64,000 bases of DNA from assembly GCA_035528375.1 (NCBI GenBank), contig DATKYS010000118.1, positions 7,824 to 71,823 of the forward strand, given 5' to 3'. The stretch's first letter is position 1. Each line of letters begins with the position of its first letter. Shown in pieces: positions 2,206-26,756 of the stretch. The notes beneath the pieces are model-generated. The model was not told the origin of the DNA and ran no database searches. It worked only from the letters and a program-made list of their open reading frames with translations. This DNA comes from a bacterium. GTDB taxonomy: Bacteria; RBG-13-66-14. A program made the position numbers and the translations under genes.

Positions 2206-2223
2206 AAACCCGAGAGGTGCGCG

Positions 2224-3846: not shown

Positions 3847-3862
3847 CCATCAGCCTCTTTGA

Positions 3863-3897
3863 GCCGGAAGCCGGGAGACCGCTTTCGGCCGTTTTTT
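3863..3897 (+). terminator. intra-operon intrinsic terminator/attenuator hairpin (GCCGGAAGC...GCUUUCGGC stem incl. one G-U) followed by TTTTTT
   Basis: 9-bp stem with 9-nt loop then T6 run, located between the aminotransferase stop and the flippase start. Confidence 0.5.
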
Positions 3898-3931
3898 CCC
3901 CCAGGGACCCGTATTCCGGGGAACCCTACGA

Positions 3932-7316: not shown

Positions 7317-8514
7317 GGTGCTTTGCATTTCGATACTGATGCCCTACCCACCGGTGGGCGGGGGGGAGAGTAAATTTTTCCACCTCCTGCGCGAGGTTTC
7401 CAGGTTCCACGAGGTGGACCTCCTCCTCTTCCCACACGTCGCGCCCGAGCAAGGGGACATTGAAGGTTTACGCCCCCATGCCCGTAGTATCAGAATCGAA
7501 CCGTTCCGACACCGACCGGACTGCCGGGATAAACTACGCTCCCTCGTAAGTCCATTCCCCCTCCCCTTCTCCTTCTTCCGCAATTCACTCATCCGGGATG
7601 CAGTGAAGCGGGCTCTGAGTGATGGAATATATGATCTCCTGCACGTGGAGGGGTGTTTTCTCGGATACTCTATCGTGGGCCTGAGAACGCCGCCGCGGCT
7701 GATCGTCCCGCACGACGCCTATTACAGAAATTATATGGAGAACCTTAAAATGGCTCCCTGGCGCAAAAAGCCGCCCATTGCCATTGACTTTCTGAAGTTC
7801 CGACGTATCGAGCCGCGTCTGTACGGCTATTACGACGCCGTGGGGATGTGTACCAACCTGGATGCCCAGGCCGTGAAGAAACTGAACCCCGCCCTTCACG
7901 TGGGCGTCGTCTCCAACGGTGCCGACCCCTGTGCCACGGCTCCCGAACCGCATGCCGAGGAATTCCCCAGCCTCGTTTTCAGCGGCTCATTCGATTACCC
8001 CCCCAACGAACTGGCCGCGCTGAGGCTCATGGGGAGGATTGCCCCCCAGCTACGCAGGAGGTGGCCGAAGCTCGCGGTTTTCATCGTCGGAAACCGCCCC
8101 ACCCGACGCATGAAGAGGGCCGCCGCCGGTAATCCCGGGAACGTCATCACCGGTCGGGTGGAATCGGTGTCGGAGTGGATTGCCCGGGGATCGGTGTACT
8201 GCAGCCCTCTATCGTACGGCGTGGGTTTCAAGAACAAGGTGCCGGAGGCCTGGGCCGCCGCCAGACCCCTCGTGGCCACGCCCAAGACCATGGAGGGAAT
8301 CGAGTTCATCCCCGGTCGGGACGCCCTGGTGGCTGAAACCGATGCCGATTTGGTCCGCGCCTGTGCTATGCTTCTGGATGATGCGGACATGCGAAGGAAT
8401 ATCGGGGAATGGGGCAGGAAACGGGTTGACGAACGGTACAACTGGCCGCTTCTGGCCAAAGATCTCCTCGAGCTGTACGACTACGTAGCCGCCCAACCGG
8501 CCAATACGAGATGA
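7303..8514 (+). CDS. glycosyltransferase family 4 (GT-B, retaining)
   Basis: 403 aa. N-terminal PYPPVGGGE loop. C-terminal GT4 domain with VGNRP...GRV...YCSPLSYGVGFKNKVPEAWAAARPLVAT. Confidence 0.7.
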   Translation: MPGYRVLCISILMPYPPVGGGESKFFHLLREVSRFHEVDLLLFPHVAPEQGDIEGLRPHARSIRIEPFRHRPDCRDKLRSLVSPFPLPFSFFRNSLIRDAVKRALSDGIYDLLHVEGCFLGYSIVGLRTPPRLIVPHDAYYRNYMENLKMAPWRKKPPIAIDFLKFRRIEPRLYGYYDAVGMCTNLDAQAVKKLNPALHVGVVSNGADPCATAPEPHAEEFPSLVFSGSFDYPPNELAALRLMGRIAPQLRRRWPKLAVFIVGNRPTRRMKRAAAGNPGNVITGRVESVSEWIARGSVYCSPLSYGVGFKNKVPEAWAAARPLVATPKTMEGIEFIPGRDALVAETDADLVRACAMLLDDADMRRNIGEWGRKRVDERYNWPLLAKDLLELYDYVAAQPANTR

Positions 8515-9944
8515 ATTTTTCGCAACCGGGGATATTCCAAAGGTCCAACGAGAGATGGCTGGAATACGCCCGTCGGCACCGCGATCTCACCGCGTGCGCA
8601 CTGCTGGCGACGGCGTATCTGGTCGTCTGCGTATTTTTACGACTGCCCTACTACTACGTCTGCCTGGGTATAGTGGGCGTCATCGCCCTGGGCATCTCCC
8701 TGAAGTACCCCTTCACCGCGTTTCTCGGTTACATATTCCTCGTCAACTTCCTCCCCTACGGCTACATCGAGTCGAATACCTTCACCCTGGCCAAAATCGG
8801 GGGGGTTCTTCTCGTCGCCGTGACCCTCGCCGTAACGGCGATCAGGACACCGGAGTATGGGCAGCGGCTCAAACGGGCCTTCGACAAGCGGGGCATCGTG
8901 GTCCTCATCCTGATAGCGGCCGGCGCCTTCTCGACCATCATCAGCCACAACCCCCAGTCGGCCTTCGTCGAGCAGCACTTTCAATTCCTGGTCCTCTTCG
9001 TCCTGACGCGCGTGTACGTGGACACGGAGAAACGGTTATGGTGGTTGCTCGTGATCATCCTCCTGGCCCGAGGCATGGATGGCGCGCTGGGGCTGTACCA
9101 GTACATCACGGTACCGGAGGCCGGTAGAATCGCGGGAAATTTTCTCGATCCAAACGAGTACGCCTGCTACTCTGTGGTTGCGCTTCCCATCGCGGTTTAT
9201 CTCGCCCAATACCGGAAGAGCAAAGTAACCTGGGCCTTTTTTATCGCGCTGGGCCTCCTCACGTTCATCGCAGTCATCATCTCCTTCTCCCGCGCCGGTT
9301 TCGTAACTCTGGCGCTCATCCTCCTAGTCATCTTCTTCATACCGGTGATAAAACTGAGAAACCGCTTGATTCTGCTGCTCCTCACCGTCGTGCTCATCAT
9401 CGCGTTCATCCCTTTCGAATACTGGTCGCGGATCGAAACCCTGAACTCCCTCTTCGGGGATGAGGGCACGGATCAGTCCGTGATAATTAGAAAAAGACAG
9501 GTGGACACCTCCATCCGCCTGTTTTTGGAAAATCCGATCCTCGGTGTGGGGTACATGCGGTACCGAACCGCCCCCGAGAAGCTGCTGGGCGGTTACATCA
9601 TCAAACGAGGCCGCACCGGGGAACACTCGACGATGCTCCAGGTCCTCGTCGAGTTCGGCCTGATAGGATTCATCCCCTTCGTCGTTCTGATTATCCTCTC
9701 CTTCTGGTCGGGTATTCGCGCGGTGAAACTCGCCAAGCTGGCCGGTGACCAGGGGATTCGACTCCTGTCCACGGCAACGACGCTCTCCTTCACCTCTTTT
9801 ATAATATTCAGTTTCATGCTGGGAACTTACACCAAATATCTGTATCTCTATCTCGTGCTGCCCATGGTGGCTTACGATATAGCGATCGAAAAGCTGTCGG
9901 GCCCGTTGGCGGAGCGGGAGGTCTTACGAAGAGGACATCGGTAG
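8511..9944 (+). CDS. O-antigen ligase / Wzy-type polymerase family membrane protein
   Basis: 477-aa protein with >10 TM helices and a Wzy_C-like central loop (FSRAGFVTLALILLVIFF...). Start ATG overlaps upstream stop (ATGA). Confidence 0.65.
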   Translation: MNFSQPGIFQRSNERWLEYARRHRDLTACALLATAYLVVCVFLRLPYYYVCLGIVGVIALGISLKYPFTAFLGYIFLVNFLPYGYIESNTFTLAKIGGVLLVAVTLAVTAIRTPEYGQRLKRAFDKRGIVVLILIAAGAFSTIISHNPQSAFVEQHFQFLVLFVLTRVYVDTEKRLWWLLVIILLARGMDGALGLYQYITVPEAGRIAGNFLDPNEYACYSVVALPIAVYLAQYRKSKVTWAFFIALGLLTFIAVIISFSRAGFVTLALILLVIFFIPVIKLRNRLILLLLTVVLIIAFIPFEYWSRIETLNSLFGDEGTDQSVIIRKRQVDTSIRLFLENPILGVGYMRYRTAPEKLLGGYIIKRGRTGEHSTMLQVLVEFGLIGFIPFVVLIILSFWSGIRAVKLAKLAGDQGIRLLSTATTLSFTSFIIFSFMLGTYTKYLYLYLVLPMVAYDIAIEKLSGPLAEREVLRRGHR

Positions 9945-9994
9945 AAGCTTGGCGTGAGCATCCTTCGATTCTTCACGTCATCGGACCCTGGTAT

Positions 9995-11056
9995 ATGGCC
10001 GGCGCGGAGAAGCAGCTCTCCAACGTCGCCAGCCGCGCGGCGAAGGCGGGGTGGAGGGTGGAGATACTGGTTCTCGGCGACCAATGGGAAGAAACGCTCC
10101 TCCCGATAGCCGAGCCCTGCCCCGTGACGACCCTGCCGAACCGTCCCCGGGGGTTGGCCCGGCTCCGGGCCCTGGCACAGAAGTTGGAACGGGAAGACTG
10201 GCCGCTCGTGGCGGGCCAGCTCTTCTCGGGAAACCTCTACGCCGTGGCCGCGGCCCGCAAGACGGGGAGGAAGGCGCTCGTCTTCGAGGGGGGGCTGGAG
10301 CCCTGGAAGCGCTGGTATCACCTGACTGCCTGCCGGTGGTACTGGAGGAGGGCGGAGCTGATCGAGGTCAACTCCCGGGCGGTGGGGGAAATGGTTCTCT
10401 CGCGGGGCGGTCCGGAGCCCAAGCTCCGAATCATCTACAACGGCATAGAAGCCGGGCGACCAGTGACCGATGACGAGCGCAGGGAAGCCAGGCGGAAGCT
10501 CGGGGTGAGCTCGGGACCGGTGGTGGTGATGGTGGCCAACCTCCGGCACCCCAAGGACCCCCAGACCCTGGTGAAAGCGACCGCTCGCTTGAAAAACGCA
10601 TACCCCGGAATCCGGACCCTCCTCGCCGGAAAAGGCCACCTCCGCCCCGCGGTCGAGGAGCTCGTACGAGAGCTGGGACTCGGGGAAGAGGTGCGGCTTC
10701 TCGGTCGGACCTACGACGTGATGTGCGTGCTGGCCGCGGCGGACGTTTTCTGCCATTCGAGCCTCTCCGAGGGACTTCCCAACGCGGTGATCGAGGCTCA
10801 GGCCGCCGGAATCCCCTGTGTCGTTTCGAGGGCCGGGGGGAGCACGGAACTCATTACGGATGGCGACCGGGGGTTGGTTTTTGAGATAGGTGACGTGGAC
10901 GGCTGCGCCGCGGCCATCTCCCGCTTGCTGGAAGACCCCGGGGAGGCCCGACGGATGGCCGAAAATTCCCGCGACTGGGTCGTCCGGGAGCTCTCCTTCG
11001 AGCGGAACCTGGAACTGCACCGCCGTCTGTACGAGGAAGCCCTGGGCATCTCGTAA
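9995..11056 (+). CDS. glycosyltransferase family 4 (N-terminus possibly truncated or non-canonical start)
   Basis: GT4 C-terminal signature HSSLSEGLPNAVIEAQAAGIPCVVSRAGG...TGLLV. The conserved beta1 motif (PSILHVIGPWY) is encoded in-frame directly upstream of the first ATG, with no ATG/GTG/TTG available there. Confidence 0.65.
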   Translation: MAGAEKQLSNVASRAAKAGWRVEILVLGDQWEETLLPIAEPCPVTTLPNRPRGLARLRALAQKLEREDWPLVAGQLFSGNLYAVAAARKTGRKALVFEGGLEPWKRWYHLTACRWYWRRAELIEVNSRAVGEMVLSRGGPEPKLRIIYNGIEAGRPVTDDERREARRKLGVSSGPVVVMVANLRHPKDPQTLVKATARLKNAYPGIRTLLAGKGHLRPAVEELVRELGLGEEVRLLGRTYDVMCVLAAADVFCHSSLSEGLPNAVIEAQAAGIPCVVSRAGGSTELITDGDRGLVFEIGDVDGCAAAISRLLEDPGEARRMAENSRDWVVRELSFERNLELHRRLYEEALGIS

Positions 11057-11058
11057 AA

Positions 11059-12120
11059 ATGCGTCTTTTTCTCATCACCCCCCACCTCATCGCCGGCGGC
11101 GCCGAACGGGACACCATCGCGCTGGCGGGCGGGCTCGTACACCGCGGGCACCGGGTGACCCTGGTCTCGCACGGCGGCGCGCTCTCCCCCGAGGCCAAAG
11201 ACTGCGGAGTGGAGGTCGTGGAGCTGCGGACGCACAGCCGCACGCCACGGGGCCTCGCGCGGCTGTCCCGGGAACTGGCGGCGTTGATCGCCGAGAGGGG
11301 CTGCGACCTGGTCCACACCCAGGCGATTCTGCCGGCGGTCGCGGCGCGGAGGGGCCTCGGGCGAGGGGTGCCGGTCCTGGTGACCATCCACAACCTCCAC
11401 CGGCGCTGGTCCTACCCCCTGGCGGCGGGGCTGCTCCGGTGGGCCGCCGACCGGGTGCTGTTCGTATCCGATTACGAGCGGCGGAATTTTCGGCGGTGCG
11501 GTTTTCCCGACAATCTCGCCCTGACCGTGCAGACCGGCCTGCCGGACGCGTTCTTCGACATCGAGCCCGAGCGGACCGGGGATCGCTTCACCTTCCTGAT
11601 GCCGGCCCGCATTGACGGACGGAAGGGGCACGACGACCTCCTGCGGGCCGTATCCATTTGCGGAGACGCCCCCTTCGATGTGTGGATCGCCGGCGACGGC
11701 CCCGCCCGGCGTTCCCTGGAACGGATGGCCGCCCGTCTCGGCGTGACCGGCCGGGTCAAGTTCCTCGGCTTCCAGCGGGATATGCCGGCGCTGCTCGAGC
11801 GCGTGAACGCCCTGGTCCTTCCCAGCCTGCGCGAGTCGCTGCCGCTTTCCCTGCGCGAGGGTTTCGCCGCCGGGCTCCCGGCGGTCGCCACCGCCGTGGG
11901 CGGGATTCCCGAGCTCGTCGAGCACGGCCGGACGGGATTGTTGGTCCCCCGCCGCGACCACCGGAGGCTGGCCCGGGCGATGAGATGCCTCGCCGTCAGA
12001 CCGGGCCTGGTGGACAGCATGGGCGAAACCGCCCGGCGGACCGCCGAACGTCGCTGGAGGTTGAAGGGATACCTGGATCAGCTGGAAATGGTGTACCGGG
12101 AACTGCTGGAGGGTCGGTGA
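11059..12120 (+). CDS. glycosyltransferase family 4
   Basis: MRLFLITPHLIAGGAERD N-terminus and LPSLRESLPLSLREGFAAGLPAVATAVGGIPELVEHGRTGLLV C-terminal EX7E region. Confidence 0.75.
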   Translation: MRLFLITPHLIAGGAERDTIALAGGLVHRGHRVTLVSHGGALSPEAKDCGVEVVELRTHSRTPRGLARLSRELAALIAERGCDLVHTQAILPAVAARRGLGRGVPVLVTIHNLHRRWSYPLAAGLLRWAADRVLFVSDYERRNFRRCGFPDNLALTVQTGLPDAFFDIEPERTGDRFTFLMPARIDGRKGHDDLLRAVSICGDAPFDVWIAGDGPARRSLERMAARLGVTGRVKFLGFQRDMPALLERVNALVLPSLRESLPLSLREGFAAGLPAVATAVGGIPELVEHGRTGLLVPRRDHRRLARAMRCLAVRPGLVDSMGETARRTAERRWRLKGYLDQLEMVYRELLEGR

Positions 12121-12431: not shown

Positions 12432-13010
12432 CCAGGGTCCGGTCGAAGACAGCCCCTCCACGGACACACCGCAATCGAAGGTGTTAAACAGGGCGGTGAA
12501 GAGCACCGCGGCCGGCCAGAAGCTCCCCGCCGCCCAGGTCAGCATCCCCGCCAGACCGGCCGACACGACGCCGCGGGTCGTGGGCACGACGGCGAGCACC
12601 GCCAGCGCCCCCCAGATGATTCTCCCCATGAAACCGCCCGAGTCGAGAAAAACGGGCAGAAAGCGGTAGGCGAAATAGGCCACTCCCGCCGCGGCCACCG
12701 CATTGGAGACCCAGACCCAGACATCCGCCCAGCCTGCGGGAGCTTTCAGCTCGGGGAAGAGGAAGAACACCGCGACGGCGACCGCGCCCGCGACGAGAAG
12801 CTGCCGGTAGAGGCTCGCCCCCGATTCGGCGGGAATCCGATTGAGTCTGATCCAGACCAGGGGCGCGACGATGCCGACCGCGACGAAGGCGATCAGCCGG
12901 TAAAAAAGCTCGTAGGCCACGTTGGCTCCGCCCAGCCAGTGGGTCGCGGCCAGGAGAACGTAGGCGGTCACCAGGCCCAGGGCGTAAAAAAGACGTATCC
13001 TCGACGACAT
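12216..13010 (-). CDS. polytopic membrane protein, hypothetical
   Basis: 264-aa ORF, N-terminal 190 aa strongly hydrophobic with coding-like GC3. C-terminal charged tail overlaps + strand small ORF. Confidence 0.5.
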   Translation of the reverse strand: MSSRIRLFYALGLVTAYVLLAATHWLGGANVAYELFYRLIAFVAVGIVAPLVWIRLNRIPAESGASLYRQLLVAGAVAVAVFFLFPELKAPAGWADVWVWVSNAVAAAGVAYFAYRFLPVFLDSGGFMGRIIWGALAVLAVVPTTRGVVSAGLAGMLTWAAGSFWPAAVLFTALFNTFDCGVSVEGLSSTGPWLIAALAGLVPLVLVTLRGALAQKAREQDKADPLDDVDREVDEHQRQRGVVILPHQPGQEEAADEERRGQNE

Positions 13011-15363
13011 GACGTCACCTCGGCTTCACAAAATTATATGGGTCATCCTCCTGCTGGTCAAGCCGGCCGGGGCGGATGCCTGGTCCGAGGCCCAGTCCGC
13101 CGCCGGCTCCGGGGATTACGCGGAGGCGGTCGGTATTCTGACCCGGGCCGTGGACGCGGGTGAGGTCCGCCCGGACAATCTGGGCCGGTGCGAGACCCAG
13201 ATTTTCCTCTGGCGCCGGGAGCTGGGCGAGGGGCGGCAGGCTCTGGAGAGGCTTTTCGAGCTGCCCGATCGGGCGACGGGCGGACTGGACTCCGCCGCCC
13301 TGGCCCTGGGGGATTATTTCGCGCAGGCCCCCGCCGACCTCCATCTCTGGTTCGAGGCCGCGGAGAGCCGCGCCGCATGGAACGTCGTGGCGGACGTGCT
13401 GGCGAAGCGCCTCCTGGAAAAAAACGCCTTCGAAGCCGCCGCCCGGGTGGCCGGTTCCCAGCCCACCCGGTGCCGGAGCGTGCTCGACGACCTGACCCGC
13501 CGACCGGAAATCGCCGCGCTCGCCCTGGCCTCTTACGGGGGAGACCCCTACGGCTTCGACCTAGGCACCTGGAAGGTCTGGCTCCGCCTGACCGAATCCG
13601 CCCGGGGACCCGAGGTCGCGGTAACCGAGGCCCTGCGGAAGGTCGCGCTCGACCCGTACCGGGTGGATTTTCGCTGCGAGGCGAGTGAGCGGCTGCGCGG
13701 TCTGGGCCGCGCCGACGAGGCCCTCGGGCTCTGGGAGGGCCGGGACGGCTCCCGGGACGACCGGGTGTACGTCGAGCGGGGGGAGTGTCTCTACGCCCTG
13801 GGGCGCGTGGAAGAGGCGCTGGAAAACTGGCGGGCCAAGCTGGATCGGGCCGACCTGAGGCCGGGTGACGTGCGGACGGTGGCGCGAATTTTCTCCGACC
13901 ACGGGCTCAACGAAGAGGCGCTCCGGTTGCTGGAAAACCCGCCCACCGGCGATTTGGCGGATTACAGTCGGGACGTCGTCCGGCTCCTCTTCGCCCTCGG
14001 GCGCTACCGGGATGCCGCCGAAACCTGTGTCGAGGCCATTTCCCGGGAGGGTCCCGGCTCATGGGCCGTCGGGTTTTTCGGAAATTTCGGTGCGACGGAA
14101 GAGACGGCGCTCGTCGCCCTGGACACCCTCGAGGGCCGCGATGAGCCGGTGTTCGGCCGCATCCGCCTGGGCATCGCCCTCTCGCCCTGGGCGCTGGGCA
14201 CCGTGGAGGACGGTCCCGGGCCCCTGCCCCACCCCTGGGCACAGGGAAGACCGAGGCTAGTGCTGGATGAACGTGCCCATCGGATCGTCGAGGACGAAAT
14301 CCGCTCCTTGACCGCCTTCTTCGCCGAGCACGCCGACATCACCCCCTGGCTGACCGGCGCGGGCGGAATCCTCCCCCTCGAGGTGGTGAAAGCCCTGGGA
14401 CAGGTCGGGCTCCCGGAAGCGGCGCTGGAATCCGCCCTGCGACTGGCCTCCCTGGAGGGACTGACCGCCGACGCCCGGGGAGCGCTCGCGTCCGCCGGCC
14501 TGTCCTTCGCCTGCGCCTCCAACCTGAGCGCCCGCGGTATCGAGCCGGATAAAATCCTCGCCCTGAACCCCGCCGACCGTGAACTGACGTGGCGAACGGC
14601 CCTCTTCCTCCTGCGCGGCGGCCGGCCCGCCGAGGCGGAGGAACTGCTTGAGGAACTGACCGAAGGATACGGTTACGGTCCCGACGAGGAACAGCTCCTC
14701 GCCGCCCGCATCGAGGCCGCCCTACTCCGGGGCGAGCCGGAACGGGCCTGGAAGCTCTCCGGACGGACACCGGACGACCTCGTCGAGCCGACCGACCCGG
14801 AGCTCCACTACCAGTTGACACTTCTCCAACTCACGCGCCTGGCGGAAAGGCTCGAGGGGGACCCGTCCTTCGATCCGGCGCCGGTCATGGATTGGGTCCG
14901 GCGGTATATCGCGCGGAACGGGGACGACCCGCGGGCCACGGACCTCTTACGCCTGCTCCTGGCCTCGGGCTTCGCCGAGAGTTTTGAGGAAAAGGGGGCG
15001 TTCACCGACCTGGTGGAGGCCTATCTGGCCGGCATCCGGTGTGATTCGTCCGCGGAGGGACGTTGCCTTCGGGAAGCCCTGGCCGCCGGCGGTCCGCTGG
15101 GGGACGAGGCGGCCGTCCAACTGGCCGACCTCCTGGCCGGGGAGGGGGATTACGCCTCGGCCCGCGACGTTCTCGCGGACGTCATCGCCGCCGCCACCGA
15201 GGGCACGGGCGATCGGGCGTTGGCTCTGGCGGCCTGGCTCGACGCCGATTTTCTCGAGGACACCGAGGGCGCGACGGGTGACCTGACCGCGCTGATCAGC
15301 GACTACCCCGGGTCGGTGCTGCTTGAGTACGCCCGCCGCGGCCTGGCCGTCCTGAACCGATGA
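13009..15363 (+). CDS. secreted TPR-like helical repeat protein, hypothetical
   Basis: 784 aa. N-terminal signal-like segment IIWVILLLVKPAGADA. Multiple TPR-like G-[DR]-Y-x-x-A units. Ala/Leu/Glu/Arg-rich. Stop overlaps start of radical SAM gene (ATGA). Confidence 0.55.
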   Translation: MTSPRLHKIIWVILLLVKPAGADAWSEAQSAAGSGDYAEAVGILTRAVDAGEVRPDNLGRCETQIFLWRRELGEGRQALERLFELPDRATGGLDSAALALGDYFAQAPADLHLWFEAAESRAAWNVVADVLAKRLLEKNAFEAAARVAGSQPTRCRSVLDDLTRRPEIAALALASYGGDPYGFDLGTWKVWLRLTESARGPEVAVTEALRKVALDPYRVDFRCEASERLRGLGRADEALGLWEGRDGSRDDRVYVERGECLYALGRVEEALENWRAKLDRADLRPGDVRTVARIFSDHGLNEEALRLLENPPTGDLADYSRDVVRLLFALGRYRDAAETCVEAISREGPGSWAVGFFGNFGATEETALVALDTLEGRDEPVFGRIRLGIALSPWALGTVEDGPGPLPHPWAQGRPRLVLDERAHRIVEDEIRSLTAFFAEHADITPWLTGAGGILPLEVVKALGQVGLPEAALESALRLASLEGLTADARGALASAGLSFACASNLSARGIEPDKILALNPADRELTWRTALFLLRGGRPAEAEELLEELTEGYGYGPDEEQLLAARIEAALLRGEPERAWKLSGRTPDDLVEPTDPELHYQLTLLQLTRLAERLEGDPSFDPAPVMDWVRRYIARNGDDPRATDLLRLLLASGFAESFEEKGAFTDLVEAYLAGIRCDSSAEGRCLREALAAGGPLGDEAAVQLADLLAGEGDYASARDVLADVIAAATEGTGDRALALAAWLDADFLEDTEGATGDLTALISDYPGSVLLEYARRGLAVLNR

Positions 15364-16229: not shown

Positions 16230-16249
16230 AGACGCACCAAACCGGTCAA

Positions 16250-16278
16250 AAAAGAGGCCCCACGGTCTCCCCTTTTTA
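16250..16278 (+). terminator. rho-independent terminator (GAGGCC-CCAC-GGUCUC then T5)
   Basis: Hairpin 16254-16270 followed by ttttt, downstream of the radical SAM gene. A-run before it makes it bidirectional-capable. Confidence 0.6.
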
Positions 16279-16305
16279 TGACCTCCCAGGTGTTTTTTCT
16301 TCTTT

Positions 16306-16335
16306 CTTAAAAAAGGGAGGCCCCACGGCCTCCCC
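16306..16335 (-). terminator. rho-independent terminator for minus-strand gene 16358..17149 (GGGAGGCC-CCAC-GGCCUCCC, T-run on minus strand)
   Basis: Perfect 8-bp GC stem 16315-16334 with the A-run 16308-16314 on + strand (T-run in minus orientation). Near-identical direct copy of the hairpin at 16254-16270. Confidence 0.6.
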
Positions 16336-16357
16336 TCATTCAATCAAAACCGGCGGA

Positions 16358-17149
16358 TCACTGCGCGAAGACGCTCTTGAGGCTGCCCCAGGTTACCTCA
16401 GCCACACCCGATACGTTGTCGGTGAGGAAGTTCATCATGTTCTTGAACATGTTGACCGTAACGGGCGTTTGTGACATACGCCACCATTCGGCGGCGTCAC
16501 GGTTGCCGTTCCAGTACACCACGATGCCGCCTAGGGGCGGAACCACCTCCGTGACGAGGATTTTCGCCGGTCCCACGCCGTGGTCGCCGGTAACGGTGAC
16601 GGCCACCGCGTACGTCACCGGCAGCTTCGGTTCGGCCATGTCGTGGTCGGAGGCATAGGCTATGATATCGTAGGTTCCGTCGTAAAAACCGGCCTCGCCG
16701 TCGGCGACCCAGTTGTTCGGATTGGTGACGGTGAACTGTTCGCAGAAGGGGCAGTCGCCGTAGATTGCGGAGCCGACCAGTTCGGCCATCAGCGGGTCGT
16801 TGGGGCTGCCCAGGGAATCCTCCCCGGTCACCACCAGGAAGTTGCCCTCGCCGACCCACTTCTGCATGACCTGGTACTCGCTTTCCAGGATGGCCCGGTT
16901 GTCGTTGTACCAGAGGATGATGTCGTAATCCAAGAGGAATCTTAAATCCGCCGATTTATTCATAATCCAGTTGTTGTGCCAGTGATCGAAACTGATGCCC
17001 ATGTCGGTGAGGACCTGCTCCACACTGTCCAGATTGTTGTTGTCGTCGGGCATGCCGTAATCGGGGGAGGAGTCGTCCAGGAGTAAAAGATTGTAAGCCG
17101 ACGCACCGAGGACCATCGCGAAGCAAAGAGTGATAGCGGTAAGTTTCAT
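16358..17149 (-). CDS. secreted protein of unknown function, paralog 1 (LLLDD...DYDIILWYNDNRAI...VVTGEDSLG...GGIVVYWNGN family)
   Basis: 263 aa, signal peptide. ~50% identical over full length to the adjacent gene 17243..18034. Alternating beta-alpha pattern suggests a flavodoxin-like/class I GATase-like fold (speculative). Confidence 0.6.
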   Translation of the reverse strand: MKLTAITLCFAMVLGASAYNLLLLDDSSPDYGMPDDNNNLDSVEQVLTDMGISFDHWHNNWIMNKSADLRFLLDYDIILWYNDNRAILESEYQVMQKWVGEGNFLVVTGEDSLGSPNDPLMAELVGSAIYGDCPFCEQFTVTNPNNWVADGEAGFYDGTYDIIAYASDHDMAEPKLPVTYAVAVTVTGDHGVGPAKILVTEVVPPLGGIVVYWNGNRDAAEWWRMSQTPVTVNMFKNMMNFLTDNVSGVAEVTWGSLKSVFAQ

Positions 17150-17242
17150 CTCTCGTCCCCCCGATCAGAGGTTACTTTTTGTTGAAAAAATCTAATCCCG
17201 AGAAAAACAGAACATACCGGAGATATTGTACACCAACCAGGG

Positions 17243-18034
17243 TTACGGTGTAAACACTCCCTTAATCCCGCCCCAGCTCATCTCCTGAACGGGCACCAGG
17301 GCGACGAAGTAATCCATCATGTTCCGGAACATGTTGACCGTCTCGGGCGACTGGGTAAAACGCCACCACTCGATGGAATCCCAGTTTCCGTTCCAGTAGA
17401 CGATTATCCCCCCGTTGCCCACGCCCTCGGTGAGCAGAATCTTCGCCGGTCCCATGACGTGACCGGTGAATGAGGTGGCGATTTTTCGCGTGCCGGGCGC
17501 CGGCTGGGCCCAGTCGTGGTCCGCGCCATCGGGGAGGATGTCGTAGCTACCGGAGAAATAACCCCAATCCCCGTCCATGATGAAGTTGTCCGATTCACCG
17601 ACGGTGAAGGAATCGCAGAAGGGGTAGTCACCGCAGGTCGAAGAGCCCACCAGTTGGGCCATGATGGGGTCGTTGGGGTTCCCCAGGGAGTCGTAGCCGG
17701 TGACGATGAGGATGTTGCCCTCCTCGACCCAGGCGTGAACCGCGTCGTACTCGGTCTGGTCTATGGCCCGGTTGTCGTTGTACCAGATAATGATCCGGTA
17801 GTCGTTCAGAAAATCGAGATCGGCGGTGATACCCGGATAGCGGAGTCGGTCGTTCCACTCGTGGTCGAAGGGGATGCCCATGTTTGTTAAAATATTCTCA
17901 ACTCGGTCCAGATTGACGATGTTTGGATACCCATCAGGTCCGTCCTGGATGTTGTCGTCTACAAGCAGGACATCCACCGCCCCCGCCGCGGTGAAACCGA
18001 GGAAGAGCAACGCTAGAAGCATCCGTTTCATGAC
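17243..18034 (-). CDS. secreted protein of unknown function, paralog 2 (same family as 16358..17149)
   Basis: Start taken at internal ATG (MKRMLLALLFLGFTAAGA signal peptide). The ORF-track N-terminal extension is unlikely to be coding. Collinear conserved blocks VLLVDD, YRIIIWYNDNRAI, ILIVTGYDSLGNPNDP, GGIIVYWNGNWD. Confidence 0.6.
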   Translation of the reverse strand, partial: VMKRMLLALLFLGFTAAGAVDVLLVDDNIQDGPDGYPNIVNLDRVENILTNMGIPFDHEWNDRLRYPGITADLDFLNDYRIIIWYNDNRAIDQTEYDAVHAWVEEGNILIVTGYDSLGNPNDPIMAQLVGSSTCGDYPFCDSFTVGESDNFIMDGDWGYFSGSYDILPDGADHDWAQPAPGTRKIATSFTGHVMGPAKILLTEGVGNGGIIVYWNGNWDSIEWWRFTQSPETVNMFRNMMDYFVALVPVQEMSWGGIKGVFTP

Positions 18035-18207
18035 TCGCCCCCTTCCCTCAGCCTCCGGCAGACCGTTTCCACCCCTGAAACCGCCGGGGCGCGTCGGGAA
18101 ACCTGGTTGATTCCTCCAAGCCATTTTAAATATAGCACCGGAGTTCCTCTGCGTCAAGAAAATGTACGGCTTGACTAATCGGGGCGCCCCATGCAGAATC
18201 CGAACAG

Positions 18208-19089: not shown

Positions 19090-19117
19090 AGCTTTGTCAC
19101 CCACGAGGAGGCAAATT

Positions 19118-19495
19118 GTGGAAATCACCGAGGTGAGGGTCAGCCTGCGCGATGAGGAAAAGCTAAAGGCTTACGCCTCCATCGTATTCGACAACTGTTT
19201 CATCGTCAAAGACCTGCGCGTCATTGACGGCAACGACCGTCTCTGGGTGGCCATGCCGAACAAGAAGCGCCGCGATGGTACGCGTCGCGACGTCTGCCAC
19301 CCCCTGAACGCCGAGACGCGGTCCAAGATCGAGGAAGCGGTTTTGGCGAAGTACGATGAGCTCATGCGGGAGGGCCTCTACGACAGTTCCCCCGAAGCCG
19401 GAGGAACCGAGGTCCCCTCCGAGGTCCCCTCCGAGGTCCCCTCCGAGGACCCCTCCGAGGACCCCCCCGAGGAGTTCGAAGAAGGCGAAGCATAG
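19118..19495 (+). CDS. spoVG: septation protein SpoVG with C-terminal acidic tandem-repeat tail
   Basis: VEITEVRVSLRDEEKLKAYASIVFDNCFIVKDLRVIDGNDRLWVAMP matches the SpoVG family. GTG start chosen. Tail (EVPS)x3-EDPS-EDPP encoded by a 12-bp tandem repeat. Confidence 0.8.
   Translation: MEITEVRVSLRDEEKLKAYASIVFDNCFIVKDLRVIDGNDRLWVAMPNKKRRDGTRRDVCHPLNAETRSKIEEAVLAKYDELMREGLYDSSPEAGGTEVPSEVPSEVPSEDPSEDPPEEFEEGEA
19407..19466 (+). repeat. in-frame 12-bp tandem repeat GAGGTCCCCTCC x3 plus two diverged copies inside spoVG 3' end
   Basis: Direct reading of sequence: gaggtcccctcc gaggtcccctcc gaggtcccctcc gaggacccctcc gaggaccccccc. Confidence 0.85.
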
Positions 19496-19930: not shown

Positions 19931-20842
19931 TCAGGGGAAACGGGTCAGGACGACGCCGGTCAGGGCGTCCACCACGAACTCGGTGAAAGCGGCCTCGTCG
20001 TCGGGGTTCATCCGCACGGCGAGCCTCTGAAAGATCCGGTAGGTGACGTTGTTGAGCCAGGGGTCACCGAGATTCTCCGGGTCGCCCTGGTGCACGAGGA
20101 AGATGCGGAAAAGCTCCCACCGGCTCTTTTCCTTATCACTCCGGTCGTCGGAGGCCCACGCGGCCTCCAGAGCGGCGGGGGAATCCACGGCGGGACGGCC
20201 CAGGGCGAGTCTCGCCGAACCCAGGGGCCAGTTCGCGAAATCGTCGGCGGGCAAATCCGGGGGGGAATCCTCCTGAACCGCCGGTTGGGCCCCCGTGCTG
20301 AGCGCCACGCGCAGAATCCGCTTCAGCCCGTTGGAGTAGAAGGCGACCACCCATTCCCGGCTCCGGCCCCCCGAGGGCTCATCGCCGGAGGCGGCGGCGT
20401 AGGCAATTGCGTCGTGGGACCAGCCGCGTCCCAGCGGTTCGGCAAGATCGAGGGCCTCCAGGACGGTCCAGTCGTCCTTCGCGTAGAGCTCGACCAGCCC
20501 GCCGGTCGCCCGTTCAAAGAACCCGCGGAACCCGTCCTTCCACGCCAGCTCGCCCGCGGTTCCGTCCGACACCAGCTCGACCTCGGCCACGTCCTCCCGC
20601 ACCCCGGTCACCTCGAGGAGGCTGCCCGGCGGCAGCGGGGTCTCACCGGTGGAGGTTTTCAACATGGAGGAGATGCCCGGCTTGAGCTGAACCACGTCGC
20701 CGACCCGGGGTGGCTGGAGGTGGGGGGGCGGGGCGGTGCGCTGGCACTGAAAAATCTCACCGAAGACGACCAGAAGAAGAAAGCCGACGCCGACGACACT
20801 CAGGATGGACCACATCAGTAACCTCTGACTCCGACTCGCCAT
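19931..20842 (-). CDS. membrane-anchored hypothetical protein
   Basis: Start taken at MASRSQRLLMWSILSVVGVGFLLLVVF (single N-terminal TM). No recognisable catalytic motifs. Confidence 0.5.
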   Translation of the reverse strand: MASRSQRLLMWSILSVVGVGFLLLVVFGEIFQCQRTAPPPHLQPPRVGDVVQLKPGISSMLKTSTGETPLPPGSLLEVTGVREDVAEVELVSDGTAGELAWKDGFRGFFERATGGLVELYAKDDWTVLEALDLAEPLGRGWSHDAIAYAAASGDEPSGGRSREWVVAFYSNGLKRILRVALSTGAQPAVQEDSPPDLPADDFANWPLGSARLALGRPAVDSPAALEAAWASDDRSDKEKSRWELFRIFLVHQGDPENLGDPWLNNVTYRIFQRLAVRMNPDDEAAFTEFVVDALTGVVLTRFP

Positions 20843-21064
20843 CGCCGCACCGGCCTTTTCACTTAACGCGGGGTTTCGACATCCGTACATATATTACCCC
20901 AGATGACCGGGTAAGGCAAGTTGTAATGAAAAGGGAACTTATCCCTTCCTAACGCGTGGGGCGCGGAACAAAGCGATTCGGTGTAACGTATAAGCGGAAT
21001 GTAAGCGCGTATTCAACACGGTACCGCGGGACTTGCGCGCAAGGCCCGCGGGGGAGGTACATCC

Positions 21065-22273
<1,209 letters not shown>

Positions 22274-25655: not shown

Positions 25656-26756
25656 CTACCCGCCGACGAGCCACCGGATGCTCCGTCCCAGGAACGCCAG
25701 CGCCTCGGTCTCGGAGGAGATGTTCTCCCAGGCGAAGGAGAGGAAGACCGAGCGGTGATTCCCGCTCTCGGAGGCCACGCCGCAGACGTCGCCGCGGGTG
25801 CGGTTCGTGAAAAGGACCTGCGCCCCGGCGGAGGCGGTGAAGCCGTCGCTCCAGTTCCCCACGATTTGCCTGTCACCGAAGAGGGACAGGGAGAGACCGG
25901 CGTTCAGCTCCCCCTCGGGCTCGGCGATGGCCACGAGGGTCTTGGCGTCGGCGCGCCAGTCCTTGACCCCCAACGCCTCCTCCAGGGAACCCGACGAGGC
26001 CGTCCCGCTCCGGGAGACCTGGCCCAGGTAGTTCTGGCTCACGAGGAGGAGCCGACCGCCGTCGTCCAGGTACCGCCGCAGCGCCCGGCGGTCGCTCTCG
26101 CTCAGGCAGACCTTGAGCGCGTCCAGGCCGGTGAAGTAGATGACCAGCCGGTAAGGTTCCAGCTCGGCGTAGGTGGGGCCGCTGGAGTTGTGGCTGACCA
26201 CGCGGGTGTCGTAGTTCACCCCGAGCGCGTCCAGCGCCGCGGTGTACCGTTCGTGGACGTCCACCCCGTAGGGGTTGCCGTTGTTCACGCCGTCGTCGTC
26301 GTCCACCAGGAGCACCGGCCCGACATCCAGCCCCGAAAGGTCCGGCGGGCCCTTGGGCTCGACGGTGACCGGCGTCTCGACCACCGCGGTCCGCGCCGAG
26401 ATTTCGAGCACGGCCCGCAGCGGGTCGCGGGCCAGGTAGGCCTTGTACGACCCGGCCGTGGCCGCGGGGTAAACCAGGAAGACGGCGTCCGCGCCGGACT
26501 GGTAAAAATTCCCCCCGACGACGTGCCCCACGGGACCGCCCAGACGTCCCCCGCTGTCGAGGTGCGCCGCGCGCGCGATGAGCCCCAGGCTGGCCTCCCC
26601 GGCGGTCAGCGAGTCGGACACCTGCACCGTGCACTCCTCGTCCAGGTAGAGCACGACGTAGGTCACGTCCTCCTGGGCGTAGCAGCGGACGTTGGTCACG
26701 CGCGCCCCGAAGGCCGCGACCGCCAGCGCGAGAAAGATGAAAACCGCTCTTTTCAC
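25656..26756 (-). CDS. secreted protein of unknown function, distant third member of the 16358/17243 family
   Basis: GTG start with GGGGAG SD. Signal peptide VKRAVFIFLALAVAAFG. Collinear blocks VLLVDDDDGVNNGNPYGVD, YRLVIYFTGLDA, DDGGRLLLVSQNY mirror the paralog family pattern. Confidence 0.5.
   Translation of the reverse strand: MKRAVFIFLALAVAAFGARVTNVRCYAQEDVTYVVLYLDEECTVQVSDSLTAGEASLGLIARAAHLDSGGRLGGPVGHVVGGNFYQSGADAVFLVYPAATAGSYKAYLARDPLRAVLEISARTAVVETPVTVEPKGPPDLSGLDVGPVLLVDDDDGVNNGNPYGVDVHERYTAALDALGVNYDTRVVSHNSSGPTYAELEPYRLVIYFTGLDALKVCLSESDRRALRRYLDDGGRLLLVSQNYLGQVSRSGTASSGSLEEALGVKDWRADAKTLVAIAEPEGELNAGLSLSLFGDRQIVGNWSDGFTASAGAQVLFTNRTRGDVCGVASESGNHRSVFLSFAWENISSETEALAFLGRSIRWLVGG

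What the first reader, a model, noticed from the sequence alone, without database searches (positions are those of the whole stretch)
16358..18034. Tandem pair of paralogous secreted proteins of unknown family, with a distant third copy at 25656..26756
The two ~260-aa signal-peptide proteins are about 50% identical over their full length. Shared blocks include LL(L/V)DD, FDHxWN, Y(D/R)IIxWYNDNRAI, VVTGxDSLGxPNDP, CPFC/YPFC, GGI(V/I)VYWNGN(R/W)D, WW(R)(M/F)(S/T)Q(T/S)P.TVNMF(K/R)NMM. They sit head-to-tail with separate promoters.

A 366-aa secreted protein 8 kb away repeats the LLVDDD / Y.L(V)IY.TG.D / GG.LL pattern. I cannot place the family. The beta-alpha-beta periodicity hints at a flavodoxin-like / class I GATase-like (ThuA/GldG-type) fold. 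Expansion of secreted paralogs suggests a niche-facing function.
Basis: partly seen in the sequence, partly recalled or inferred. Interest (0 to 1): 0.55.

Follow-up and report, generated by a model that had tools for sequence, protein, structure and literature searches.

The report
Secreted paralog pair with novel C-terminal tag
Two neighbouring genes of an uncultured Coatesbacteria-type bacterium encode secreted proteins from an unannotated branch of the glutamine-amidotransferase-like fold that has lost the catalytic residues, and both end in a short tail that also closes many unrelated secreted proteins and looks like an undescribed sorting tag.

Summary
ORFs A (16358-17149, minus strand) and B (17243-18031, minus strand) are 52% identical (E 2e-87), and each has a Sec-type signal peptide. 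The "third copy" (25656-26756) is a true but remote homolog (hhalign 97%, E 1e-10).

No Pfam or NCBIfam model reaches threshold. A confident AlphaFold model (pLDDT 89.7) matches only class I glutamine-amidotransferase-like folds (ThuA-like 4JQS, IFT52 GIFT, SpuA). No Cys or His is conserved, so these proteins are not amidotransferases.

The close family is confined to Coatesbacteria MAGs, always as the same tandem pair. In archaea and Myxococcota the domain sits inside giant surface proteins next to CARDB/PKD modules and S8/M6 peptidases.

The unexpected part is the tail. Both proteins end in a ~17-residue tail, [VT]-P-V-E-E-[ST]-[ST]-W-G-x-I-K-x-x-[YF]-(R). A metagenome scan that did not require a stop codon found the motif at the extreme C-terminus in 97 of 125 hits (3.8 expected). 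Ninety-five of those are unrelated proteins, mostly with signal peptides. I found no model or paper describing it.

Best reading: envelope-targeted, non-catalytic ligand-binding proteins carrying an undescribed C-terminal tag.

The parts
16358..17149 (-). Gene A: 263-aa secreted single-domain protein (NCBI locus tag VM054_09370, 'hypothetical protein')
   Evidence: ORF; exact match to P0001; orthologs at 61-81% identity in six Coatesbacteria-type genomes.
17243..18031 (-). Gene B: 262-aa paralog of A (VM054_09375). The ATG is at 18031, not 18034.
   Evidence: exact match to P0014.
17096..17149 (-). Signal peptide of A (MKLTAITLCFAMVLGASA, predicted cleavage ASA|YN)
   Evidence: Read from the sequence: n-h-c organisation and the -3/-1 Ala rule. 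Inference only; no predictor was run.
17978..18031 (-). Signal peptide of B (MKRMLLALLFLGFTAAGA, predicted cleavage AGA|VD)
   Evidence: Read from the sequence; inference.
16415..17092 (-). Class I GATase-like (ThuA/GIFT-like) domain of A, residues ~20-245, without the Cys-His-Glu triad
   Evidence: AF2 model pLDDT 89.7, pTM 0.86. Foldseek gave 47 hits at E<1e-3, all GATase1-like. Conserved columns are listed.
17300..17977 (-). Class I GATase-like domain of B, residues ~19-244
   Evidence: 52% identical to A across the domain. B keeps every family-invariant column.
16361..16411 (-). C-terminal tag of A: SGVAEVTWGSLKSVFAQ
   Evidence: The tail is conserved in all standalone family members. The same motif sits at the C-terminus of 95 unrelated proteins.
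17246..17296 (-). C-terminal tag of B: LVPVQEMSWGGIKGVFTP
   Evidence: The search pattern was written so that B's own DNA sequence (read) fits it.
18129..18157 (-). Sigma70-like promoter consensus upstream of B (TTGACG-17-TATATT, with extended TG)
   Evidence: a consensus match only.
17225..17254 (-). Sigma70-like promoter consensus in the B-A junction (TTTACA-18-TACAAT)
   Evidence: a consensus match only.
16309..16334 (-). GC hairpin (GGGAGGCC-GTGG-GGCCTCCC) followed by T6: likely terminator of the B-A unit
   Evidence: Read from the sequence. The scan did not list it; it listed only the neighbouring hairpin at 16254-16269 in plus orientation, which faces the convergent radical-SAM gene.
25656..26756 (-). 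Gene C: 366-aa secreted remote homolog with a GTG start and no WGxIK tag, sitting between recG and dus
   Evidence: Its position is conserved in the relative L003.
25659..26321 (-). GATase-like domain of C (residues 146-366), homologous to the A/B domain
   Evidence: hhalign A2 vs A3: 97% probability, E 1e-10, 189 aligned columns.

Best explanation
A and B are exported through the Sec pathway as single-domain proteins of about 245 residues. They belong to an unmodelled family of the class I glutamine-amidotransferase-like superfamily, of the ThuA / GIFT / DUF4350 type. The catalytic Cys-His-Glu triad is absent, so they are not amidotransferases. The family-wide conserved residues are D25/D26 after strand 1, W80..N84-R85 after strand 3, T108-G109-x-D111 and P116-x-D118 after strand 4, D170, K196, and Y212-W213-N214-G215-N216 with W222. 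All lie at the C-terminal edge of the central sheet. They most likely form an acidic and aromatic pocket that binds a ligand: a glycan, perhaps with Ca2+, or a partner protein. Non-catalytic relatives work this way (the Agd3 carbohydrate-binding module, the S1P GIFT subdomain). Each protein ends in a ~17-residue tag, [VT]-P-V-E-E-[ST]-[ST]-W-G-x-[IL]-K-x-x-[FY]-x(0-2). The same tag closes many unrelated signal-peptide proteins, several of them in this lineage. It most likely acts after export as a sorting or retention signal that places its carriers at the cell envelope. The pair arose by one duplication inside the Coatesbacteria lineage. Both copies keep every invariant residue, which suggests two specificities or a heteromer. 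Shown here: paralogy, fold, loss of the triad, lineage restriction, the fixed tandem arrangement, and the C-terminal placement and breadth of the tag. Inferred: signal-peptide cleavage, the pocket, the kind of ligand, and what the tag does.
For: Paralogy: 52% identity, E 2e-87. No family model passes threshold. Only 24 close homologs exist among 5.8 billion clusters, all unnamed.

Fold: model pLDDT 89.7. All 47 Foldseek hits at E<1e-3 are GATase1-like: 4JQS at 1.7e-7, IFT52 GIFT at TM 0.58/0.66, plus SpuA, GH42, DMFase and S1P. Sub-threshold Pfam hits agree: DUF4350 in 18 of 40 members and ThuA in 17 of 40.

No triad: no Cys or His appears among invariant or near-invariant columns in 40 diverse members or in 50 large homologs.

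Extracellular module: the profile finds 196 representatives. Partner domains in 50 large homologs are CARDB 17, PKD 9, Peptidase_S8 6, DUF4215 5, plus dockerin, VWA, M6 and MBTPS1_4th.

Precedents: the Agd3 ThuA-like domain lacks the triad and uses conserved aromatics at the same sheet edge as a carbohydrate-binding module (PMC7229062). The S1P GIFT subdomain holds a Ca2+ in an acidic pocket and makes protein contacts (PMC11231238).

Duplication: all six Coatesbacteria-type genomes have the B->A tandem. The A and B clades are sisters, with single-copy outgroups. The single-copy L009 gene is also next to the GHMP kinase gene.

Tag: it is kept at the extreme C-terminus even when an Ig domain is inserted before it (P0094). 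97 of 125 motif hits are within 3 codons of a stop, against 3.8 expected (p 6e-120), and 95 of them are outside the family. 73 of 97 have signal-peptide-like N-termini. Positions the search did not fix are also conserved. Two of nine tagged proteins carry choice-of-anchor J or X domains. Several tagged genes sit on contigs whose composition matches the window.
Against: There is no experimental or localisation evidence. The model's coordinates could not be inspected, so the clustering of conserved residues into one pocket is inferred from topology only.

The very strict conservation of T-G-x-D...P-x-D and Y-W-N-G-N across archaea and bacteria at about 25% identity is more typical of an enzyme than of a binding module.

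The tag has no transmembrane segment and no basic cluster, unlike every established small C-terminal sorting signal. No candidate sorting enzyme was found. AF2 models the tail as a low-confidence helix (pLDDT 65-71). Gene neighbourhoods are housekeeping and give no functional hint.
Confidence: 0.55

Rival explanations
1. A and B are secreted enzymes, for example glycan- or peptide-modifying hydrolases. They would use the invariant carboxylates (D25, D111, D118, D170, E91) in the canonical GATase-site crevice, as a new catalytic solution on the ThuA-like scaffold.
For: The motifs TGxD..PxD and YWNGN are near-invariant across 196 representatives from bacteria and archaea. The fold superfamily contains many hydrolases, including SpuA/PuuD, gamma-glutamyl peptidase, DMFase and an acylase. 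ThuA itself belongs to a sugar-utilisation pathway (Pfam description of PF06283).
Against: There is no conserved Cys, His or Ser nucleophile. S112 becomes V/L/I in distant members. The nearest structural neighbours (4JQS, IFT52 GIFT) have no known catalysis. The domain is usually embedded among adhesion-type Ig modules.
Confidence: 0.25
2. The domain is a protease-accessory module. Like the GIFT subdomain of site-1 protease, it would dock on and stabilise or gate a secreted peptidase. In Coatesbacteria it would have become a free-standing pair of subunits.
For: 6 of 50 large homologs carry Peptidase_S8, 1 carries M6, and others carry InhA-MAM or PPC. One homolog hits PF23090 MBTPS1_4th at 3e-7. 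S1P is among the Foldseek hits. The role of the S1P GIFT subdomain is described in PMC11231238. The window encodes secreted peptidases: C11 at 29360-31882 and HtrA at 21065-22273.
Against: About 85% of the large homologs scanned have no peptidase domain. A and B are not adjacent to a peptidase gene. I did not locate the MBTPS1_4th hit within its protein, so its overlap with this domain is unverified.
Confidence: 0.1
3. The WGxIK tail is not a sorting signal. It would instead be a short interaction or anchoring peptide: an interfacial amphipathic membrane anchor, a strand that docks onto a common envelope receptor, or a degron or PDZ ligand for HtrA/Ctp-type proteases.
For: The tail lacks the TM helix and Arg cluster of known sorting signals. 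The consensus SWGRIKALYR is amphipathic, more so with beta than with helical periodicity (muH 0.67 vs 0.40). An HtrA with PDZ domains is encoded 3 kb away.
Against: The residues after the aromatic vary (R, E, K, H, AQ, TP or none), which argues against strict recognition of a C-terminal carboxylate. The conserved upstream [VT]-P-V-E-E-[ST]-[ST] segment looks like a processing or recognition site. Choice-of-anchor domains occur upstream of the tag.
Confidence: 0.3

Closest known systems
ThuA-like proteins (Pfam PF06283; structures 4JQS, 4E5V)
   Same: Same three-layer class I GATase-like fold without the catalytic triad. 4JQS is the top Foldseek hit (E 1.7e-7, TM 0.54-0.58). 17 of 40 family members give sub-threshold ThuA hits.
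   Different: No member reaches the ThuA gathering score, and A itself gives no hit. Identity to 4JQS is 10%. A and B are secreted and carry a C-terminal tag. The TGxDSLG and YWNGN motifs are specific to this family.
GIFT domains: IFT52 N-terminal domain, GldG / ABC_transp_aux, OST48, and the GIFT (fourth GATase-like) subdomain of site-1 protease (PF23355, PF09822, PF23090)
   Same: Best TM-scores relative to the target (0.66 to 5FMS). These are non-catalytic, extracytoplasmic or trafficking-related scaffolds. Fusion to a subtilase, as in S1P, recurs in archaeal and bacterial homologs.
   Different: Only sporadic sub-threshold HMM hits. The PDB sequence search finds nothing.
DUF4350 / DUF4159 (class I GATase-like clan domains of unknown function)
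   Same: The most frequent weak Pfam match (DUF4350 in 18 of 40 members, best 2e-5). B and C gave marginal DUF4350 and DUF4159 hits.
   Different: The hits are below the gathering threshold. P0042 and P0044 contain a bona fide DUF4350 domain elsewhere in the same protein in addition to this domain, so the two are distinct families.
Agd3 N-terminal carbohydrate-binding module (ThuA/GATase1-like fold)
   Same: Same nearest structure (4JQS). It has no Cys-His-Glu triad and has conserved surface aromatics at the C-terminal edge of the sheet, used for glycan binding (PMC7229062). This is the model for the proposed mechanism.
   Different: No detectable sequence relationship was tested or found. Agd3's module is part of a deacetylase, whereas A and B are free-standing.
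Small C-terminal protein-sorting domains (LPXTG, PEP-CTERM, PGF-CTERM, GlyGly-CTERM, MYXO-CTERM)
   Same: The tag sits at the extreme C-terminus of signal-peptide proteins, occurs several times per genome, has at least three near-invariant residues, and occurs downstream of choice-of-anchor domains.
   Different: The tag has no hydrophobic TM segment and no Arg cluster. It ends 0-3 residues after the aromatic. No NCBIfam or Pfam model matches it.
T9SS type-A C-terminal domain (Por_Secre_tail / FlgD_ig)
   Same: A C-terminal signal on secreted proteins of diderm bacteria. It is present in the same window on other proteins, at 29360-31882 and 38913-40808.
   Different: The T9SS CTD is a folded beta-sandwich of about 75 residues. 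The WGxIK tag is about 17 residues and has no similarity to it. A and B have no CTD.

Membership tests
Class I glutamine amidotransferase (catalytic GATase1) | Three-layer alpha/beta/alpha GATase1 fold | tested here: met
   AF2 pLDDT 89.7. All 47 Foldseek hits at E<1e-3 have this fold, including SpuA, PuuD and the CTP synthase glutaminase domain.
Class I glutamine amidotransferase (catalytic GATase1) | Conserved Cys-His-Glu catalytic triad (Cys at the elbow after strand 4) | tested here: not met
   No Cys or His appears among invariant or near-invariant columns. The elbow reads T-G-[EYF]-D-S.
ThuA (PF06283) | HMM score at or above the gathering threshold (33.4 bits) | tested here: not met
   A gives no hit and B gives no ThuA hit. 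The best score among relatives is 29.1 bits. 17 of 40 members hit only below threshold.
DUF4350 (PF14258) / GldG-type GIFT | HMM score at or above the gathering threshold (30.4 bits) over this domain | tested here: not met
   B scores 14.2 bits. Passing DUF4350 hits in P0042 and P0044 lie in a different region of those proteins.
SGNH/GDSL or alpha/beta-hydrolase-type serine hydrolase | Invariant nucleophilic Ser in a GDSL or G-x-S-x-G motif | tested here: not met
   S112 of 'EDSLG' follows strand 4, not strand 1, and is V/L/I in distant members.
Tripartite C-terminal sorting signals (PEP-CTERM, LPXTG and similar) | Location at the extreme C-terminus of secreted proteins | tested here: met
   97 of 125 hits are within 3 codons of a stop, against 3.8 expected. 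73 of 97 have signal-peptide-like N-termini.
Tripartite C-terminal sorting signals (PEP-CTERM, LPXTG and similar) | Multiple occurrences in one genome | tested here: inconclusive
   The window has 2. L032 has 3 and L146 has 2, on contigs that match the window in composition and come from the same assembly as the A/B orthologs. No complete genome could be censused.
Tripartite C-terminal sorting signals (PEP-CTERM, LPXTG and similar) | Signature motif followed by a TM helix and an Arg-rich cluster | tested here: not met
   The tag ends 0-3 residues after the aromatic, and the most common ending is a single R. The definition is from 10.1101/2023.06.07.544157.
Tripartite C-terminal sorting signals (PEP-CTERM, LPXTG and similar) | A cognate sorting enzyme that co-occurs with the signal | not testable with these tools
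   This needs phylogenetic profiling over complete genomes. The neighbourhoods seen here are housekeeping.
T9SS C-terminal domain | A folded CTD of about 75-100 aa that matches Por_Secre_tail or TIGR04183 | tested here: not met
   A and B give no such hit. Other proteins in the window do have it.

The most novel reading that the evidence does not exclude
The [VT]-P-V-E-E-[ST]-[ST]-W-G-x-I-K-x-x-[YF]-(R)-COOH tail is the recognition signal of a previously unrecognised protein-sorting or surface-attachment system of uncultured diderm bacteria, including Coatesbacteria. It would be mechanistically unlike the sortase, exosortase, rhombosortase and T9SS systems, because it has no TM helix and no folded CTD, and it would have its own still-unknown machinery. 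A and B would be two of its cargo proteins.
Probability: 0.35. Interest if true: 0.8.

Novelty: new variant of a known kind. Interest (0 to 1): 0.62.

Why it matters
The result has two layers. First, it defines an unannotated, widely dispersed extracellular domain family with about 200 representatives at 50% identity, found in Coatesbacteria, Myxococcota, Phycisphaerae and Thermoplasmata. The family belongs to the GATase1/ThuA/GIFT superfamily. That gives a fold-level handle on many "hypothetical" surface proteins, and it extends the subtilase-plus-GIFT architecture known from eukaryotic site-1 protease to prokaryotes.

Second, and more important, the pair led to a short, sharply conserved C-terminal motif shared by many unrelated secreted proteins of uncultured bacteria. 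No curated model and no searchable paper describes it. If it is a sorting signal, it would define the surface or secreted proteome of these candidate phyla directly from sequence. It would also point to unknown envelope machinery. Phylogenetic profiling and metaproteomics can test this directly.

Tried and rejected
- **PDB by sequence:** the single protein and the 40-sequence profile gave only noise.
- **First AF2 model:** 20 close sequences gave pLDDT 63.9 and weak TM scores of about 0.4. It was replaced by a model from a 40-sequence diverse alignment.
- **The search for related loci with A2:** The tighter alignment A1 was used instead.
- **Tail-only search of the 5.8-billion-protein set:** impossible, because the tool needs at least 40 aa and caps E at 10. 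The first DNA pattern had too few plain bases. It was reformulated so that B's own sequence fits it.
- **Conserved disulfide (CPFC/YPFC):** rejected, since the Cys positions are not conserved.
- **GDSL-like or nucleophile-elbow Ser:** rejected.
- **Recent horizontal transfer as the cause of the GC dip** (0.58 vs 0.66): rejected. GC3 is 0.78-0.81, within the range of neighbouring genes. The dip lies in GC1 and GC2 and comes from a composition that is 36-39% N/D/Y/I/K/F/M.
- **Functional hints from neighbourhood:** none. A and B lie between ispE and a radical-SAM gene; C lies between recG and dus.
- **Literature:** nothing relevant for Coatesbacteria, the domain family or the motif strings.
- **Taxonomy of tagged proteins by cluster look-up:** all are unnamed or labelled '[bacterium]'.
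- **MBTPS1_4th hit:** I did not identify which of the 50 large homologs gave it.
Full report
**Observation**

The window carries two minus-strand ORFs. A is 16358..17149 (263 aa). They lie head-to-tail, 93 nt apart. Each begins with a typical n-h-c signal peptide ending in ASA|Y (A) or AGA|V (B); I read this from the sequence and ran no predictor. Consensus sigma70-like sites lie upstream of B (18157-18129) and in the B-A junction (17254-17225), and there is no terminator between the genes. A GC hairpin followed by T6 comes after A (16334-16309). "Separate promoters" is therefore possible, but it rests on consensus matches only.

**The third copy**

By BLASTP, protein C (25656..26756, GTG start) is only marginal against A (E 0.037). 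A profile built from 40 diverse family members picks C as the only other hit among all 558 window ORFs of at least 60 aa (E 2.7e-5). Comparing that profile with an alignment of C's own 11 homologs gives 97% probability and E 1e-10 over 189 columns. The match covers the whole domain, C residues 146-366. C is therefore a genuine remote homolog. It has an extra N-terminal region of about 130 residues, different residues at the equivalent motif positions (SQNYLG in place of TGxDSLG), and no C-terminal tag. Its position between recG and dus is conserved in a diverged relative.

**Family placement**

Neither Pfam nor NCBIfam has a model that reaches threshold. The only traces are DUF4350 (B, 14 bits) and DUF4159 (C, 13 bits). 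The word-indexed search of 5.8 billion clusters returned 24 proteins. All are "hypothetical", all come from MAGs, and one is named Candidatus Coatesbacteria. The exhaustive profile search of 1.84 billion representatives found 196 proteins at E<=1e-3. Most are large multidomain proteins of up to 6819 aa in which profile positions ~35-243 form one domain.

The first AlphaFold model, from 20 close sequences, was poor (pLDDT 63.9). Adding short distant members raised it to pLDDT 89.7 and pTM 0.86. Foldseek against the PDB then gave 47 hits at E<1e-3, and every one has the class I glutamine-amidotransferase-like fold. They include:
- ThuA-like 4JQS (1.7e-7)
- the IFT52 GIFT domain (TM 0.58/0.66)
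- SpuA/PuuD
- the accessory domains of Op5Man5 and GH42
- dimethylformamidase and an acylase
- NDST1
- site-1 protease
- the CTP synthase glutaminase domain

Sequence identity never exceeds 14%. Sub-threshold Pfam hits across members point to the same clan: DUF4350 in 18 of 40, ThuA in 17 of 40, plus ABC_transp_aux, DMFA2_C and IFT52_GIFT.

**Not an amidotransferase**

Across 40 diverse members the invariant columns are G102, T108, G109 and N237. The near-invariant columns are D25, R85, E91, L105, D111, P116, D118, A122, G131, G151, D170, K196, G208, W213, G215, N216 and W222. The same set recurs in 50 large homologs. No Cys or His is conserved, so the Cys-His-Glu triad is absent. The elbow after strand 4 reads T-G-[E/Y/F]-D-S-L-G. 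The Ser is V/L/I in distant members, which rules out a serine nucleophile. The CPFC/YPFC cysteines are not conserved.

In the model's secondary structure, the conserved polar and aromatic residues follow strands 1, 3 and 4 and the strand at 208-215. In doubly wound alpha/beta folds that is the ligand-binding edge, and it is where the GATase active site lies. I infer this from topology, because the coordinates could not be inspected.

**Distribution and evolution**

A scan of one genome per GTDB species found close relatives (63-81% identity) only in Coatesbacteria-type MAGs. It also found one lineage at 36% identity, and more distant domain copies in Thermoplasmata archaea, Myxococcota (Sandaracinaceae, Polyangiaceae) and Bradymonadia. 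Phycisphaerae relatives carry thrombospondin type 3 repeats.

All six distinct Coatesbacteria-type loci carry the same B->A tandem between the GHMP-kinase (ispE-like) gene and a radical-SAM gene. The 36% lineage has a single copy, also divergent from the GHMP-kinase gene. In a neighbour-joining tree the A and B clades are sisters and the single-copy proteins are outgroups. This is one old, stable duplication, not an expansion. Both copies retain every invariant residue. The GC dip over the genes (0.58 vs 0.66) is explained by amino-acid composition, not by foreign origin.

**Context in other proteins**

Partner domains among 50 large homologs:

| Partner domain | Proteins (of 50) |
|---|---|
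| CARDB | 17 |
| PKD | 9 |
| Peptidase_S8 | 6 |
| DUF4215 | 5 |
| CarboxypepD_reg | 5 |
| A2M | 3 |
| Dockerin | 2 |
| Peptidase_M6 | 1 |
| VWA | 1 |
| MBTPS1_4th (GATase-like domain of site-1 protease), 3e-7 | 1 |

Their C-termini carry assorted anchors: a TM segment with a basic tail, dockerin-like tails, T9SS-like tails, or YLPxI(V/F)K tails. The domain is therefore a module of extracellular or surface proteins.

Two papers give mechanistic precedents. The ThuA/GATase1-like domain of Agd3 has the same nearest structure (4JQS), lacks the triad, and uses conserved aromatics at the same sheet edge as a carbohydrate-binding module (PMC7229062). The GIFT subdomain of S1P packs on the subtilase domain, holds a putative Ca2+ in an acidic pocket, and contacts SPRING (PMC11231238).

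**The C-terminal tag**

All standalone members end in (S/T)WGx(I/L)Kxx(F/Y) plus 0-2 residues, including members only about 26% identical to A. In P0094 a Big_5-type Ig domain is inserted after the GATase-like domain, yet the tail is still at the extreme C-terminus. The tail is therefore autonomous.

I scanned the metagenome collection with a degenerate DNA pattern encoding E-x-[S/T..]-W-G-x-I-K-x-x-[F/Y]. The pattern did not require a stop codon and was written so that B's own sequence fits it. Results:
- In 97 of 125 matches a stop codon follows within three codons. If the position were uniform within the ORF, 3.8 would be expected (binomial p 6e-120).
- 95 of the 97 do not belong to the A/B family by hmmsearch.
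- 73 of the 97 have signal-peptide-like N-termini by a crude hydropathy test. Most of the rest are truncated by contig ends.
- Positions not fixed by the pattern are also conserved: -7 V/T, -6 P/A, -5 V/T, -4 E, -2 and -1 S/T, +5 A/S, +6 L/M, and a final R in 40 of 96.

The tag is [VT]-P-V-E-E-[ST]-[ST]-W-G-x-I-K-[AS]-[LM]-[YF]-(R)-COOH, and A (SGVAEVTWGSLKSVFAQ) and B (LVPVQEMSWGGIKGVFTP) are variants of it.

Ten tagged proteins looked up by exact sequence are all called genes in public assemblies, and none carries an informative name. NCBIfam has no model for the tail, but two of nine tagged proteins contain choice-of-anchor J or X domains. NCBIfam gave those families that name because, to my knowledge, they occur upstream of interchangeable C-terminal anchors.

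Tagged non-family genes also occur in this lineage. P0206 lies on scaffold_6 of the assembly whose scaffold_5 carries the A/B orthologs. Loci L146, L032 (three tagged genes) and L028 (three tagged genes, one of them a family member) correlate with the window in tetranucleotide composition at 0.96-0.97. Bona fide Coatesbacteria loci reach 0.99, and other taxa reach 0.8 or less.

The tag does not fit the established small sorting signals, which consist of a signature motif, a TM helix and an Arg cluster (10.1101/2023.06.07.544157). It is also unrelated to the ~75-residue T9SS-type CTDs that other proteins in this same window carry (29360-31882 and 38913-40808). Searches of 8 million full texts for the motif strings found nothing relevant.

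**Interpretation**

The best-supported reading is that A and B are exported, non-catalytic (or at least non-amidotransferase) ligand-binding proteins with a ThuA/GIFT-type fold, directed to or held at the cell envelope by a shared C-terminal tag. The ligand (glycan or protein) and the action of the tag are inferences. Three rivals remain open: an enzymatic role for the invariant carboxylates, a protease-accessory role like that of the S1P GIFT subdomain, and a tail that serves as an anchor or interaction peptide and not as a processed sorting signal.

**Novelty**

The domain is a new, unmodelled family of a known superfamily. The tag appears to be undescribed and is the more interesting part.

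Noticed in passing
window 29360-31882 (+) and 38913-40808 (+): The first is an 840-aa secreted clostripain-family (Peptidase_C11) protein with an InhA-like MAM domain. The second is a 631-aa protein with no Pfam domain. Both end in a classical T9SS type-A / FlgD-like C-terminal domain (Por_Secre_tail 26.5 bits against a cutoff of 27). The organism therefore seems to use at least two different C-terminal signals.
   Followed up: partly
L028 1-3748; L032 1212-2804, 11373-13851; L146 7923-9515: These loci encode a second family of WGxIK-tagged secreted proteins (about 365-505 aa, N-terminal 'GYYFWDS...VYVGSNG' domain, some with a Big_5 Ig domain). In L028, two of them flank a member of the A/B family. 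No Pfam or NCBIfam annotation exists beyond a weak Big_5 hit.
   Followed up: partly
L054, L065, L087, L130 (metagenome contigs): Two or three adjacent genes each end in ...E(E/T)(S/T)(S/T)WGxIKALYR, often preceded by Cys-rich stretches. The contigs come from organisms that differ in composition from the window (tetranucleotide r about 0.8 for L065), so the tag is not confined to Coatesbacteria.
   Followed up: partly
window 16245-16340: Two similar GC hairpins (core GGCC-GTGG-GGCC), each followed by a T-run, lie between the convergent A gene and the radical-SAM gene. The distal one (16254-16269) reads as a terminator on the plus strand. Together they look like a bidirectional terminator pair.
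   Followed up: no
window 1048-12120: A long plus-strand polysaccharide-biosynthesis cluster: DegT-type aminotransferase with a CBS domain, Polysacc_synt flippase, UDP-GlcNAc 2-epimerase-like gene, three or four GT4 glycosyltransferases, and Wzy_C polymerase/ligase. It lies 4 kb from the A/B pair and is conserved in the relative L003.
   Followed up: no
window 19094-19495 (+): The SpoVG homolog carries an acidic C-terminal extension with short PSE(V/D) repeats (PSEVPSEVPSEDPSEDPPEE). The ortholog in L003 is longer and gives a weak Extensin_1 hit.
   Followed up: no
window 19931-20890 (-) and the 251-aa called gene (in L001, 14179-14934) that lies beyond the 784-aa TPR gene (window 13009-15363): Two further conserved proteins with no Pfam family sit in the same syntenic block (319 aa and 251 aa). 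Both are retained in the diverged relative L003.
   Followed up: no
P0042, P0044 (large homologs from the profile search): These proteins combine this domain with a separate bona fide DUF4350/GldG-like domain, PPC and an InhA-like MAM domain. P0042 also has a subtilase and cohesin domains. That puts two different GATase1-like modules in one surface protein.
   Followed up: no
P0039, P0042, P0044, P0045, P0048, P0052, P0070, P0076, P0134 (C-termini): Many large homologs end in a short '(V)YLP(L/F/M)(I/V)(V/F)(K/R)' tail. This may be another unannotated C-terminal motif.
   Followed up: no
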